A stretch of DNA of 64,000 nucleotides. Origin: Octopus sinensis (Eukaryota). A program made the position numbers and the translations under genes. The stretch lies in NCBI RefSeq assembly GCF_006345805.1, contig NC_043001.1, positions 4,340,001 to 4,404,000 of the forward strand, written 5' to 3'. A model generated the notes under the pieces. The model ran no database searches, was not told the origin of the DNA, and saw only the letters and a list, made by a program, of their open reading frames with translations. Positions 35,864 through 55,129 of the stretch are shown piece by piece; the stretch's first letter is position 1; each line of letters begins with the position of its first letter.

Positions 35864-38169
35864 TTAGTCAATTTAGGGTAGCAAAAAAATTCAATAGAAA
35901 TTTATCGCTACCAGCGGCCTGATGGAAAAGAGAAAATAGTCATCGACTAAATATATAAATATAACAATTTAGGAGTGACCCCAACAGGTCACTCGTCCAC
36001 CAGAAGAGCAGCCATAACTCACACCGCCAAGTAGTAGTAATTCAGAAATTAGGTGAAAATTTAAAAAACATTTACCCTAATTCATCTTTTAGACGTTGCA
36101 ACGTTTCTGTGTCATTAATGATCAAATTAGCTTAATTAAATTAAATTAAGCCAATCTACCATAGGTTACACTTCATCAGTAAAAGACCTGGGAGAGACAA
36201 ATATACACGAGGCGTCTGTATCGATGCCTACGGGATATCTGACTTAAAATTTTCAAGACTGACGTATTCGCGCCAAACTTATCAACAGTAAATATAAACT
36301 GCCGATTCAATCTCAGAATTATTCAGAAAATTATCAATTAGTCAATTTAGGGTAGCAAAAAAATTCAATAGAAATTTATCGCTACCAGCGGCCTGATGGA
36401 AAAGAGAAAATAGTCATCGACTAAATATATAAATATAACAATTAGGAGTGACCCCAACAGGTCACTCGTCCACCAGAAAGAGCAGCCATAACTCACACCG
36501 CCAAGTAGTAGTAATTCAGAATTAGGTGAAAATTTAAAAAAACATTTACCCTAATTCATCTTTTAGACGTTGCAACGTTTCTGTGTCATTAATGATCAAA
36601 TTAGCTTAATTAAATTAAATTAAGCCATCTACCATAGGTTACACTTCATCAGTAAAAGACCTGGGAGAGACAAATATACACGAGGCGTCTGTATCGATGC
36701 CTACGGGATATCTGACTTAAAATTTTCAAGACTGACGCATTCGCGCCAAACTTATCAACAGTAAATATAAACTGCCGATTCAATCTCAGAATTATTCAGA
36801 AAATTATCAATTAGTCAATTTAGGGTAGCAAAAAAATTCAATAGAAATTTATCGCTACCAGCGCCTGATGGAAAAGAGAAAATAATCATCGACTAAATAT
36901 ATAATATAACAATTTAGGAGTGACCCCAACAGGTCACTCGTCCACCAGAAAGAGCAGCCATAACTCACACACCGCCAAGTAGTAGTAATTCAGAAATTAG
37001 GTGAAAATTTAAAAAACATTTACCCTAATTCATCTTTTAGACGTTGCAACGTTTCTGTGTCATTAATGATCAAATTAGCTTAATTAAATTAAATTAAGCC
37101 AATCTACCATAGGTTACACTTCATCAGTAAAAGACCTGGGAGAGACAAATATACACGAGGCGTCTGTATCGATGCCTACGGGATATCTGACTTAAAATTT
37201 TCAAGACTGACGTATTCGCGCCAAACTTATCAACAGTAAATATAAACTGCCGATTCAATCTCAGAATTATTCAGAAAATTATCAATTAGTCAATTTAGGG
37301 TAGCAAAAAAATTCAATAGAAATTTATCGCTACCAGCGGCCTGATGGAAAAGAGAAAATAGTCATCGACTAAATATATAAATATAACAATTTAGGAGTGA
37401 CCCCAACAGGTCACTCGTCCACCAGAAGAGCAGCCATAACTCACACCGCCAAGTAGTAGTAATTCAGAAATTAGGTGAAAATTTAAAAAACATTTACCCT
37501 AATTCATCTTTTAGACGTTGCAACGTTTCTTCTTCTTTCTGTGTCATTAATGATCAAATTAGCTTAATTAAATTAAATTAAGCCAATCTACCATAGGTTA
37601 CACTTCATCAGTAAAAGACCTGGGAGAGACAAATATACACGAGGCGTCTGTATCGATGCCTACGGGATATCTGACTTAAAATTTTCAAGACTGACGTATT
37701 CGCGCCAAACTTATCAACAGTAAATATAAACTGCCGATTCAATCTCAGAATTATTCAGAAAATTATCAATTAGTCAATTTAGGGTAGCAAAAAAATTCAA
37801 TAGAAATTTATCGCTACCAGCGGCCTGATGGAAAAGAGAAAATAGTCATCGACTAAATATATAAATATAACAATTTAGGAGTGACCCCAACAGGTCACTC
37901 GTCCACCAGAAAGAGCAGCCATAACTCACACCGCCAAGTAGTAGTAATTCAGAAATTAGGTGAAAATTTAAAAAACATTTACCCTAATTCATCTTTTAGA
38001 CGTTGCAACGTTTCTGTGTCATTAATGATCAAATTAGCTTAATTAAATTAAATTAAGCCAATCTACCATAGGTTACACTTCATCAGTAAAAGACCTGGGA
38101 GAGACAAATATACACGAGGCGTCTGTATCGATGCCTACGGGATATCTGACTTAAAATTTTCAAGACTGA
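35864..38169 (-). repeat. Left arm of retrozyme-like array: ~4.9 tandem 474-bp units, HHR on minus strand
   Basis: Unit marker gtcaatttagggtagc at 35867, 36341, 36814, 37289 and 37773. HHRs at 36085-36186, 36559-36659, 37033-37134, 37507-37618 and 37992-38093. No ORF >=60 aa in the ORF track. Confidence 0.95.
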
Positions 38170-38194
38170 GAAAATAGAAAAAGAAAATAGTCAT

Positions 38195-41100
38195 CGTTGC
38201 AACGTCTAAAAGATGAATTAGGGTAAATGTTTTTTAAATTTTCACCTAATTTCTGAATTACTACTACTTGGCGGTGTGAGTTATGGCTGCTCTTTCTGGT
38301 GGACGAGTGACCTGTTGGGGTCACTCCTAAATTGTTATATTTATATATTTAGTCGATGACTATTTTCTCTTTTCCATCAGGCCGCTGGTAGCGATAAATT
38401 TCTATTGAATTTTTTTGCTACCCTAAATTGACTAATTGATAATTTTCTGAATAATTCTGAGATTGAATCGGCAGTTTATATTTACTGTTGATAAGTTTGG
38501 CGCGAATACGTCAGTCTTGAAAATTTTAAGTCAGATATCCCGTAGGCATCGATACAGACGCCTCGTGTATATTTGTCTCTCCCAGGTCTTTTACTGATGA
38601 AGTATAACCTATGGTAGATTGGCTTAATTTAATTTAATTAAGCTAATTTGATCATTAATGACACAGAAACGTTGCAACGTCTAAAAGATGAATTAGGGTA
38701 AATGTTTTTTAAATTTTCACCTAATTTCTGAATTACTACTACTTGGCGGTGTGAGTTATGGCTGCTCTTTCTGGTGGACGAGTGACCTGTTGGGGTCACT
38801 CCTAAATTGTTATATTTATATATTTAGTCGATGACTATTTTCTCTTTTCCATCAGGCCGCTGGTAGCGATAAATTTCTATTGAATTTTTTTGCTACCCTA
38901 AATTGACTAATTGATAATTTTCTGAATAATTCTGAGATTGAATCGGCAGTTTATATTTACTGTTGATAAGTTTGGCGCGAATACGTCAGTCTTGAAAATT
39001 TTAAGTCAGATATCCCGTAGGCATCGATACAGACGCCTCGTGTATATTTGTCTCTCCCAGGTCTTTTACTGATGAAGTGTAACCTATGGTAGATTGGCTG
39101 AATTTAATTTAATTAAGCTAATTGATCATTAATGACACAGAAACGTTGCAACGTCTAAAAGATGAATTAGGGTAAATGTTTTTTAAATTTTCACCTAATT
39201 TCTGAATTACTACTCCTTGGCGGTGTGAGTTATGGCTGCTCTTTCTGGTGGACGAGTGACCTGTTGGGGTCACTCCTAAATTGTTATATTTATATATTTA
39301 GTCGATGACTATTTTCTCTTTTCCATCAGGCCGCTGGTAGCGATAAATTTCTATTGAATTTTTTTGCTACCCTAAATTGACTAATTGATAATTTTCTGAA
39401 TAATTCTGAGATTGAATCGGCAGTTTATATTTACTGTTGATAAGTTTGGCGCGAATACGTCAGTCTTGAAAATTTTAAGTCAGATATCCCGTAGGCATCG
39501 ATACAGACGCCTCGTGTATATTTGTCTCTCCCAGGTCTTTTACTGATGAAGTGTAACCTATGGTAGATTGGCTTAATTTAATTTAATTAAGCTAATTGAT
39601 CATTAATGACACAGAAACGTTGCAACGTCTAAAAGATGAATTAGGGTAAATGTTTTTTAAATTTTCACCTAATTTCTGAATTACTACTACTTGGCGGTGT
39701 GAGTTATGGCTGCTCTTTCTGGTGGACGAGTGACCTGTTGGGGTCACTCCTAAATTGTTATATTTATATATTTAGTCGATGACTATTTTCTCTTTTCCAT
39801 CAGGCCGCTGGTAGCGATAATTTCTATTGAATTTTTTTGCTACCCTAAATTGACTAATTGATAATTTTCTGAATAATTCTGAGATTGAATCGGCAGTTTA
39901 TATTACTGTTGATAAGTTTGGCGCGAATACGTCAGTCTTGAAAATTTTAAGTCAGATATCCCGTAGGCATCGATACAGACGCCTCGTGTATATTTGTCTC
40001 TCCCAGGTCTTTTACTGATGAAGTGTAACCTATGGTAGATTGGCTTAATTTAATTTAATTAAGCTAATTTGATCATTAATGACACAGAAACGTTGCAACG
40101 TCTAAAAGATGAATTAGGGTAAATGTTTTTTTAAATTTTCACCTAATTTCTGAATTACTACTACTTGGCGGTGTGAGTTATGGCTGCTCTTTCTGGTGGA
40201 CGAGTGACCTGTTGGGTCACTCCTAAATTGTTATATTTATATATTTAGTCGATGACTATTTTCTCTTTTCCATCAGGCCGCTGGTAGCGATAAATTTCTA
40301 TTGACTTTTTTTGCTACCCTAAATTGACTAATTGATAATTTTCTGAATAATTCTGAGATTGAATCGGCAGTTTATATTTACTGTTGATAAGTTTGGCGCG
40401 AATACGTCAGTCTTGAAAATTTTAAGTCAGATATCCCGTAGGCATCGATACAGACGCCTCGTGTATATTTGTCTCTCCCAGGTCTTTTACTGATGAAGTG
40501 TAACCTATGGTAGATTGGCTTAATTTAATTTAATTAAGCTAATTTGATCATTAATGACACAGAAACGTTGCAACGTCTAAAAGATGAATTAGGGTAATGT
40601 TTTTTTAATTTTCACCTAATTTCTGAATTACTACTACTTGGCGGTGTGAGTTATGGCTGCTCTTTCTGGTGGACGAGTGACCTGTTGGGGTCACTCCTAA
40701 ATTGTTATATTTATATATTTAGTCGATGACTATTTTCTCTTTTCCATCAGGCCGCTGGTAGCGATAAATTTCTATTGAATTTTTTTGCTACCCTAAATTG
40801 ACTAATTGATAATTTTCTGAATAATTCTGAGATTGAATCGGCAGTTTATATTTACTGTTGATAAGTTTGGCGCGAATACGTCAGTCTTGAAAATTTTAAG
40901 TCAGATATCCCGTAGGCATCGATACAGACGCCTCGTGTATATTTGTCTCTCCCAGGTCTTTTACTGATGAAGTGTAACCTATGGTAGATTGGCTTAATTT
41001 ATTTAATTAAGCTAATTTGATCATTAATGACACAGAAACGTTGCAACGTCTAAAAGATGAATTAGGGTAAATGTTTTTTAAATTTTCACCTAATTTCTGA

Positions 41101-41652
41101 ATTACTACTACTTGGCGGTGTGAGTTATGGCTGCTCTTTCTGGTGGACGAGTGACCTGTTGGGGTCACTCCTAATTGTTATATTTATATATTTAGTCGAT
41201 GACTATTTTCTCTTTTCCATCAGGCCGCTGGTAGCGATAAATTTCTATTGAATTTTTTTGCTACCCTAAATTGACTAATTGATAATTTTCTGAATAATTC
41301 TGAGATTGAATCGGCAGTTTATATTTACTGTTGATAAGTTTGGCGCGAATACGTCAGTCTTGAAAATTTTAAGTCAGATATCCCGTAGGCATCGATACAG
41401 ACGCCTCGTGTATATTTGTCTCTCCCAGGTCTTTTACTGATGAAGTGTAACCTATGGTAGATTGGCTTAATTTAATTTAATTAAGCTAATTGATCATTAA
41501 TGACACAGAAACGTTGCAACGTCTAAAAGATGAATTAGGGTAAATGTTTTTTAAATTTTCACCTAATTTCTGAATTACTACTACTTGGCGGTGTGAGTTA
41601 TGGCTGCTCTTTCTGGTGGACGAGTGACCTGTTGGGGTCACTCCTAAATTGT

Positions 41653-41657
<5 letters not shown>
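38195..41657 (+). repeat. Right arm of retrozyme-like array: ~7.3 tandem 474-bp units, HHR on plus strand
   Basis: Predicted GTC cleavage triplets end at 38206 (partial HHR), 38681, 39155, 39629, 40102, 40577, 41050 and 41523, a spacing of 473-475 bp. The arm ends in (TA)n. Confidence 0.95.
38587..38688 (+). ncRNA. Type I hammerhead ribozyme (representative of 12 complete copies in the array)
   Basis: tctttta-CTGATGA-a-[long stem II; gtgt/acac in other copies, gtat here]-a-GAAAC-gttgcaac-GTC-taaaaga. Perfect 7-bp stem I, intact core, palindromic stem III acgttgcaacgt. Confidence 0.85.
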
Positions 41658-41674
<17 letters not shown>

Positions 41675-53129: not shown

Positions 53130-53186
53130 GATATATACATATAATATATATGTATATATATACATATCTAAATGTTTATATATATA

Positions 53187-53783
53187 CATTTCCAAATTTA
53201 TTCCTGTCGAATATTATCCGTTATTTTTGTTGTTTACAGAACCTAGCTGTTTTTTCTATTGTTTTGAATTTCACGCAAAGTGGAATTCTTATGTGTATAA
53301 ATATGCACTATATCGTATGACTAATATATAGTCTTCTTGACTAATTTTTGTGAACCTTAGACCATTGGAAATGTAAATTTTGATTGAATATTTTATTTTA
53401 ATTAAATTCCATTTCCCTTTGATATGATGAAACATTATAAGTTTCTTGATCATTTTCGGTTAAAGTTGGCGGTTTTTATTGTAGCCAGCGATTGGACAGC
53501 TTTTGTGCAGAAAAATTTGAAAAGTTAGTTCGTATGAACACGACACAAGTAGCGGTGTTTGTCTCGTGTTGTATATGTTTAACGCTAGGTTGCACCTTGC
53601 CGAAGAAGATCAGACCTTGCGAGTTCCCCCGACTTGCTAAAAGAAGATCAGAAACCAATTGGTCCGGGGTGCTAGATGGTAAATGTTTTTCATTTCAAAA
53701 TTTATTCCTGTCGAATTTTATCCGTTATTTTTGTGGTTTACAGAACCTAGCTGTTCTTTCTAATGTGTTGAATTTCACGCAAA
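53187..53783 (+). mobile_element. ~1.2-mer of a 504-bp hammerhead-bearing unit (93-bp terminal direct repeats)
   Basis: 53187-53279 is repeated at 53691-53783. HHR at 53592-53672. Flanked by (TA)n and (CA)n. Confidence 0.8.
53592..53672 (+). ncRNA. Type I hammerhead motif (CCGAAGA core variant)
   Basis: gcaccttg-CCGAAGA-a-gatc...gcgagt...acttgc...gatc-a-GAAAC-caattg-GTC-cggggtgc. 8-bp stem I with two GU pairs; palindromic stem III accaattggt. Confidence 0.75.
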
Positions 53784-54657: not shown

Positions 54658-55119
54658 AAAAAAAATGAGGGTGAAAAAATTGGATATTAATTTAATAACA
54701 TTAGTTTAACACCAAGTGGTTTAGCGCATAAAAACTGGGATACAGTAAAAATTAATACACAACGGAAATTTTGGCGCGCTATAACGAGGACATTCGAATC
54801 ATAACTGCAAATATAATAGACTGAACCACACGTGTGTTTGGCTTTATGTTAAAATCTAGCATGCGGTTCAATAAATTATATTCATGAGGAATTCTACTGA
54901 TGAGCTGTGGATCTATTATGTAAGTAACATTGCATAATCTATTAATAGTGAAACAATTGTCTAGAATTAATCTAAATTTTTGTTATTTTTCATTTGTCCT
55001 GCTCGTTTACGTTCATAGTTGTGCTAATTCTACTTGGCAACAATTCTTGGTGGTTGAGACTATAGCGGATCTATTTTTAGCGCAAGAACGTCCACATAGT
55101 GGACCCCCTCTTATATTTG
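54658..55119 (+). mobile_element. ~460-bp monomeric hammerhead-bearing element between (TA)n tracts; diverged relative of the array unit
   Basis: Contains HHR 54890-54968. Shares tttggcgcg upstream and cttgg.gg...gag..at.gc...tct plus a terminal hairpin downstream with the array unit. Confidence 0.7.
54890..54968 (+). ncRNA. Type I hammerhead ribozyme with canonical core
   Basis: aattcta-CTGATGA-gctgt..attatgta..tgcataat..atagt-GAAAC-aatt-GTC-tagaatt. Perfect 7-bp stem I; palindromic stem III acaattgt; predicted cleavage after 54961. Confidence 0.85.
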
Positions 55120-55129
55120 TGTATATATA

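What the first reader, a model, noticed from the sequence alone, without database searches (positions are those of the whole stretch)
53187..53783. Second HHR unit (504 bp) captured as a 1.2-mer, with stems fully covarying relative to the array
Seen: 93-bp terminal direct repeats 504 bp apart enclose an HHR whose stem I (gcaccttg/cggggtgc) and stem III palindrome (accaattggt) differ completely from the array unit yet still pair. Flanking motifs are shared: ctcgtgt upstream and ggtaaatgttttt just downstream of the HHR. Inference: terminal redundancy is expected from reverse transcription slightly more than once round a circular RNA (or a partial-tandem pLTR). The covariation indicates selection on the fold across a diverse family.
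Basis: partly seen in the sequence, partly recalled or inferred. Interest (0 to 1): 0.75.

Follow-up and report, generated by a model that had tools for sequence, protein, structure and literature searches.

The report
Hammerhead retrozyme copy, Penelope-style insertion
This is an old 1.2-unit copy of a non-coding jumping element that carries a hammerhead ribozyme fold; its relatives across the genome end at two fixed sites and form single-haplotype arrays, which likely records a Penelope-type reverse transcriptase copying round a small RNA circle.

Summary
Observation confirmed: 93-bp direct repeats (87/93) 504 bp apart enclose a type I hammerhead fold with a CCGAAGA core. The copy belongs to a genome-wide superfamily (2,265 motif hits, 0 in control) whose stems covary (stem I 240/270, stem II 150/180 cells paired; ten different stem III palindromes). 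CCGA is a subfamily trait (24 vs 57 CTGA), not decay of this copy. Ends are only half permuted: 5' ends scatter, 3' ends fall at two fixed sites ~100 nt apart, running into (TA)n. In head-to-head insertions one arm ends at each site (16/17 array-family loci, 25/29 in this family): the Penelope 'tail'. An intact Neptune-like PLE in the genome inserts the same way but shares no detected pLTR sequence. Young arrays (up to ~12 units per arm) carry one haplotype in both arms (0.13% within, 1.6% between loci), favouring a monomer, likely circular, template. This copy is atypical (3' end ~40 nt short of site 1, arms 6.5% diverged) and alone cannot prove a circle. Verdict: new member of the non-LTR retrozymes; cleavage, circles and partner untested. 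The scan noted a similar hammerhead/Penelope insertion in another genome.

The parts
53187..53690 (+). One 504-bp monomer of retrozyme family B (permuted; starts 27 nt after the predicted cut)
53187..53279 (+). Left copy of the 93-bp terminal redundancy (carries 5 of the 6 arm differences)
53691..53783 (+). Right copy of the redundancy; 3' end at +119, followed by (CA)n, about 40 nt short of site 1
53169..53177 (+). Probable 5' extension (9 nt matching the unit), separated from 53187 by a 9-nt TA run
53584..53676 (+). Type I hammerhead fold: stem I 53592-53599/53665-53672 with an upper helix, core 53600-53606 (U4C), stem II 53608-53649 flanked by A and A, GAAA 53651-53654, palindromic stem III 53654-53663, predicted cut after 53664
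53678..53690 (+). Superfamily motif just downstream of the ribozyme; role unknown
   Evidence: 2,265 hits with the GAAAC..GTC anchor, 0 control
53312..53318 (+). Site 1 (+158): first preferred 3' end of family copies, the likely RT start
53421..53428 (+). Site 2 (+268): second preferred 3' end; site 1 to site 2 is the ~110-nt tail
35864..38169 (-). Family A (474 bp) insertion, left arm, about 4.8 units, 3' end at site 2 (+229)
38195..41665 (+). Family A insertion, right arm, about 7.3 units, 3' end at site 1 (about +133)
54890..55121 (+). Third, more diverged hammerhead fragment (CTGATGA core, palindromic stem III), ending about 160 nt after the cut in (TA)n

Best explanation
The segment is a 1.18-unit genomic copy of a non-coding hammerhead-fold element (non-LTR retrozyme) that is likely copied into AT microsatellites by the reverse transcriptase-endonuclease of an autonomous Penelope-like element, likely from a small circular RNA. 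Shown: a closed ~420-504 nt unit in many subfamilies, covarying hammerhead stems, 3' ends at two fixed internal sites followed by (TA)n, scattered 5' ends, head-to-head arms that use one site each, one haplotype per young insertion. Inferred steps: multimeric transcripts self-cleave (palindromic stem III suggests dimeric folding), monomers are ligated to circles, a PLE protein cuts (TA)n and primes cDNA from both DNA ends at site 1 and site 2, runs through the ligated cut site for a fraction of a round up to ~12 rounds, and the 5' ends are joined to each other or to the target. This copy went round about 1.2 times; its 3' end was primed off-site or later trimmed.
For: 2,265 motif hits vs 0 control. 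Stem I 240/270 and stem II 150/180 cells paired vs shuffle maxima 206 and 109; 31 of 45 stem III are perfect palindromes of 10 different sequences. 37 of 40 3' ends at two sites. Site1/site2 pairing of arms: 16 of 17 (family A), 11 of 12 and 14 of 17 in family B. Family A: 66 singleton and 9 shared minor alleles in 52,608 cells; 5.4 fixed differences per ~329 columns between loci; 16 haplotypes in 19 loci; 6 loci with private alleles in both arms. Units read through the cut site without a break. Circular folds z -5.1 and -3.7. An intact two-ORF RT/GIY-YIG element with ~99% identical copies has two 3' ends 35-40 nt apart, (TA)n targets and the same one-site-per-arm inversions. Same tail and internal RT starts in PMC11167929, PMC8557442, PMC3846280.
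Against: No RNA evidence: only contigs of guessed RNA runs. No retrozyme-like pLTR in 101 PLE-bearing loci other than separate insertions, so the partner is unidentified. Single haplotypes also follow from local expansion after a short insertion; L094 and L103 show local duplication, and long-read polishing may even out units. This copy's 3' end is off-site, its arms differ by 6.5% and share no rare allele. Family B 5' ends pile up mildly just after the cut (12 of 22 within +1 to +30, hand count, biased sample), hinting at linear cleaved templates. In PMC11167929 uncleaved RNA was the dominant substrate in vitro. U4C lowers activity in vitro (passage in PMC3088659).
Confidence: 0.75

Rival explanations
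1. Same PLE-dependent element, but copied from linear multimeric or partly cleaved RNA; long arrays then grow locally by unequal crossover, and no circle is needed.
For: Local duplication patterns at L094 and L103; mild excess of family B 5' ends just after the cut; HHR cleavage not needed for PAc insertion in vitro (PMC11167929); local amplification is the model in the Discussion of 10.64898/2026.07.22.740005. Fits this 1.2-mer as well as a circle does.
Against: Singletons outnumber shared minor alleles 66 to 9 and 10 of 19 loci have none shared; private alleles are fixed in both inverted arms at 6 loci; the young family has the long arrays and the older family at most about 2.4 units, the reverse of slow growth.
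Confidence: 0.17
2. The units are only 5'-truncated pLTR ends of an autonomous PLE (partial tandems), not an independent element.
Against: The unit closes on itself in every multi-unit copy, up to ~12 times per arm; the PLE at L172 has its own different pLTR and is younger (~99% to siblings) than the B arms (94%); no RT or endonuclease ORF continues from the unit in the 90 loci scanned.
Confidence: 0.06
3. A TRIM/LTR-like element or a chance local duplication with 93-bp terminal repeats.
For: Terminal direct repeats around a non-coding core.
Against: No other of 28 loci has these ends; redundancy length varies from none to more than one unit; no TSD at this locus ((TA)n left, (CA)n right).
Confidence: 0.02

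Closest known systems
Non-LTR retrozymes of animals (Cervera and de la Pena 2020, PMC7229834; Li et al. bioRxiv 10.64898/2026.07.22.740005)
   Same: Non-coding, low-GC tandem units with one type I HHR each; self-paired predicted circle; monomers to multimers; co-occurrence with PLEs.
   Different: Units of 418-504 nt are at or above the reported 150-450 bp; long interrupted stem II; A on both sides of stem II in 31 of 45; U4C subfamilies; two fixed 3' ends, head-to-head arms and (TA)n targeting were not found in the parts of these papers that I read or term-searched. RNA not shown here.
EN+ Penelope-like elements, Neptune-type and Poseidon PAc (PMC11167929, PMC8557442, PMC3846280, PMC4209133)
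   Same: Tail between two internal RT start sites, present on one arm of inverted insertions; 5' truncation and inversion; microsatellite/AT-rich targets; HHR with an extra base before stem II and palindromic stem III.
   Different: No ORF; tail ~95-110 nt instead of 30-40; up to ~12 exact units per arm; 3' junctions show short TA microhomology, whereas PAc priming was non-homologous in vitro.
CCGA-core hammerheads of viroid-like RNAs (passages in PMC9608096, PMC3088659)
   Same: U4C change in the CUGA turn.
   Different: There a rare sequence variant; here fixed in subfamilies of two separate clades, one of which forms young arrays.

Membership tests
Non-LTR retrozyme | Type I hammerhead motif in each unit | tested here: met
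   core variant U4C in this copy; no Rfam hit at gathering score
Non-LTR retrozyme | Short non-coding tandem unit, monomers to multimers, dispersed | tested here: met
   unit lengths 418-504, slightly above the published range
Non-LTR retrozyme | No LTR, PBS, PPT or 4-bp TSD anatomy | tested here: met
   Variable redundancy and ends; PBS/PPT not searched; TSDs unreadable in (TA)n
Non-LTR retrozyme | [quoted passage not shown] | tested here: inconclusive
   Not met by this copy (one HHR); met by family B loci L010 and L024 and by family A
Non-LTR retrozyme | Self-cleavage of the RNA | not testable with these tools
   Needs a cleavage assay
Non-LTR retrozyme | Circular monomeric RNA in vivo | tested here: inconclusive
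   contigs of guessed RNA runs only, family A query
Non-LTR retrozyme | Co-occurrence with an autonomous PLE | tested here: met
   sequence link to its pLTR not found
Autonomous EN+ PLE | RT and GIY-YIG ORF between pLTRs | tested here: not met
   L172 adjacency is a separate, later insertion
Autonomous EN+ PLE | Tail, 5' inversion, microsatellite target (works like a PLE) | tested here: met
TRIM / LTR retrozyme | Fixed LTRs with TSD; type III HHR in the LTR | tested here: not met

The most novel reading that the evidence does not exclude
These insertions are direct fossils of twin-primed rolling-circle retrotransposition: one dimeric PLE enzyme primes both ends of a cut (TA)n site at two different positions on a single circular retrozyme RNA and copies it up to a dozen times per arm in one event. 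That would explain the PLE tail and inverted arms and show that retrozyme arrays are born long, and that U4C hammerheads are good enough to sustain the cycle.
Probability: 0.4. Interest if true: 0.72.

Novelty: new member of a known kind. Interest (0 to 1): 0.5.

Why it matters
How animal retrozymes move is proposed but thinly evidenced: the 2020 paper names PLEs as candidates and the 2026 preprint says it has limited evidence on the life cycle and invokes local expansion. Here genome anatomy alone ties a retrozyme superfamily to PLE-type priming and to a monomer bottleneck at insertion, in a genome that also holds an intact young PLE with the same insertion pattern. That makes the circle-template model and the origin of the PLE tail directly testable in vitro. 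The locus itself is an ordinary aged copy.

Tried and rejected
Rfam gathering scan of the window: 0 hits. RNA: no holder on record as RNA; contigs of 4 guessed RNA runs gave no joints or ends, no evidence either way; only family A was queried. L090 PLE fragment as partner: opposite strand, decayed, no Pfam hit. L172 co-insertion or shared pLTR: rejected on age and on the PLE's own pLTR. L119: a 5'-truncated retrozyme piece in an old PLE 3' region, no ribozyme. The nhmmer profile was contaminated by TA flanks, so only hits on its 5' part were read. CCGA as private decay: rejected. Downstream motif as splice donor: considered, untested. Arm-haplotype test on this copy: uninformative. Literature: searches for octopus + hammerhead (+ Penelope) and PLE tail/inverted/twin priming listed nothing describing this family; subscription papers, Repbase/Dfam and supplements were not seen, so prior annotation as an unclassified repeat or PLE is possible. 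The primary U4C paper was not held.

Full report
Observation. The window is G000:C5:4340001-4404000 of a 2.72-Gb, microsatellite-rich genome; that it is probably a cephalopod is my recall, not a result. 53187-53279 and 53691-53783 match at 87 of 93 bases at offset 504. Between them lies a type I hammerhead fold: stem I, CCGAAGA, A, a four-pair stem II with internal loop and hairpin, A, GAAA, palindromic stem III, predicted cut after 53664. The fold is the MFE but not unusually stable (z -1.06), and Rfam gives no hit. Flanks are (TA)n and (CA)n with no TSD. The 504 unit (family B) and the 474 array unit (family A) share only 13-21 nt BLAST matches. Positions below count from the predicted cut (+1).

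Family. Family B is dispersed: 1,292 candidates, 90 matches among 40 scored. An anchor pattern of the ribozyme's 3' half plus the downstream motif has 2,265 hits and 0 in the reversed control. From 55 loci, 101 anchor hits gave 82 with a core (19 had none, dropped) and 45 distinct ribozymes. Stem I is paired in 240 of 270 cells (shuffle mean 188, max 206), stem II in 150 of 180 (mean 85, max 109), with G-C/A-T and T-A/C-G swaps; 31 of 45 stem III are perfect palindromes of ten sequences (hand count). Caveats: the core was picked by best pairing and the shuffles ignore relatedness. An A precedes stem II in 37 of 45 and an A follows it in 31; an extra base at the 5' side is a PLE ribozyme trait (PMC4209133). 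Unit lengths seen in tandem: 418, 441, 456, 468, 472-475, 484-487 and 504.

The core. Exact patterns give 24 CCGA and 57 CTGA cores in family B. CCGA also occurs in the clade near family A, including a young array. So U4C is inherited and probably arose twice. One paper says the change did not affect self-cleavage in a viroid (PMC9608096 passage), another that it lowers activity in vitro but suffices in vivo (PMC3088659 passage).

Ends. In 28 family B loci (30 fetched, 2 duplicates dropped) 37 of 40 3' ends lie at +144-173 or +268-281; BLAST ends run a few bases into the TA target, the true ends being about +158 and +268. Eleven of 12 two-armed head-to-head loci have one arm at each site. A second set chosen by short patterns (25 loci, 1 lost to a script error, 2 duplicates) gave 14 of 17. 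In family A, 17 of 19 loci are two-armed and 16 of them pair about +133 with about +229; inner 5' ends are scattered over the unit. These loci were top hits, so they favour young, long arrays. This is the PLE tail: an extension on one of the inverted ends (PMC8557442, PMC3846280 passages) lying between two internal RT start sites (PMC11167929). The focal copy runs from +27 (perhaps +16) once round to +119. Its end is one of the three off-site ends; L219 ends similarly at +124. Its arms differ at 6 sites, 5 on the left arm, share no rare allele, and the unit is 33/504 from the family majority: an old copy.

Template. In family A, after masking 137 of 474 indel-prone columns, units within a locus show 66 singleton and 9 shared minor alleles in 52,608 cells, while loci differ by 5.4 fixed sites per ~329; there are 16 haplotypes in 19 loci and 6 loci carry private alleles in nearly all units of both arms. 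Each insertion therefore passed through one monomer, and arms cross the cut site up to about 12 times without a break. A circle explains this most simply, as proposed in PMC7229834 and PMC4209133. Against: L094 and L103 show local duplication; singletons may be read errors; 12 of 22 short family B arms start at +1 to +30, as a cleaved linear template would give; PAc used uncleaved RNA in vitro. For the focal 1.2-mer a circle and a partly cleaved dimer cannot be told apart.

Partner. A GIY-YIG search found 147 matches among 150 scored of 5,029 candidates, including a family with a 466-aa ORF1 and a 765-aa RT-CxxCxxC-GIY-YIG ORF ('Neptune-like' rests on the linker described in PMC8557442, no tree was built). 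Copies are ~99% alike, form partial tandems, end at two sites 35-40 nt apart in (TA)n, and at L270 and L273 use one site per inverted arm. It fits by age, target and pattern, but no similarity of its pLTR to the retrozyme was found in 101 PLE-bearing loci. At L172 it abuts site 2 of a family B insertion whose arms are 94% alike, so it came later.

Comparison and verdict. The element meets the testable features of non-LTR retrozymes, fails those of autonomous PLEs and TRIMs, and inserts like a PLE. Cleavage, circles and the partner are untested. Papers seen: 10.64898/2026.07.22.740005 part 1 of 5, Discussion, term passages; PMC7229834 parts 2-3 of 6 and passages; PMC11167929 parts 1-2 of 4; PMC4209133 parts 1-2 of 4; passages only of PMC8557442, PMC3846280, PMC3088659, PMC9608096. 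No supplements were read; they may list such elements. New member of a known kind; interest 0.5, carried by the family-level mechanism rather than this copy.

Noticed in passing
window 35864-41665: The 474-bp array is one two-armed insertion (about 4.8 inverted plus 7.3 direct units) with site 2 and site 1 ends in (TA)n and a single haplotype.
   Followed up: yes
window 54890-55121 (+): Third hammerhead element with canonical core and palindromic stem III but without the downstream motif, 1.1 kb from the focal copy, ending in (TA)n.
   Followed up: partly
window 24993 (-), 49596 (+), 60496 (+): Three copies of another repeat with a CTGATGA core in a shared context, probably a different PLE-type ribozyme repeat.
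   Followed up: no
L172 4736-8400 (-); L168-L171, L177, L244-L273: Young intact two-ORF Penelope-like family with overlapping ORF1 (466 aa, no convincing Pfam hit) and RT/GIY-YIG ORF; its pLTR has repeated CCAAT- and CRE-like boxes and no hammerhead passed my scan, only a degenerate look-alike by eye.
   Followed up: partly
L168 1-1653 and 5934-7591: PLE copy flanked by a 99% identical 1.65-kb duplication that includes 1.1 kb of unrelated flank: 3' transduction or tandem duplication.
   Followed up: no
L175 773-999 and 1489-1715; L119 2690-2880: Another hammerhead-bearing repeat family in inverted arrangement ending in (TA)n, unrelated in sequence to families A and B.
   Followed up: no
L094, L103: Shared minor alleles among neighbouring units show local duplication after insertion at a minority of arrays.
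   Followed up: partly
window 53327-53343 and 38818-38830 region: Both families have a small conserved hairpin just downstream of site 1, as the PLE has a hairpin between its two ends; a candidate RT recognition element, untested.
   Followed up: no
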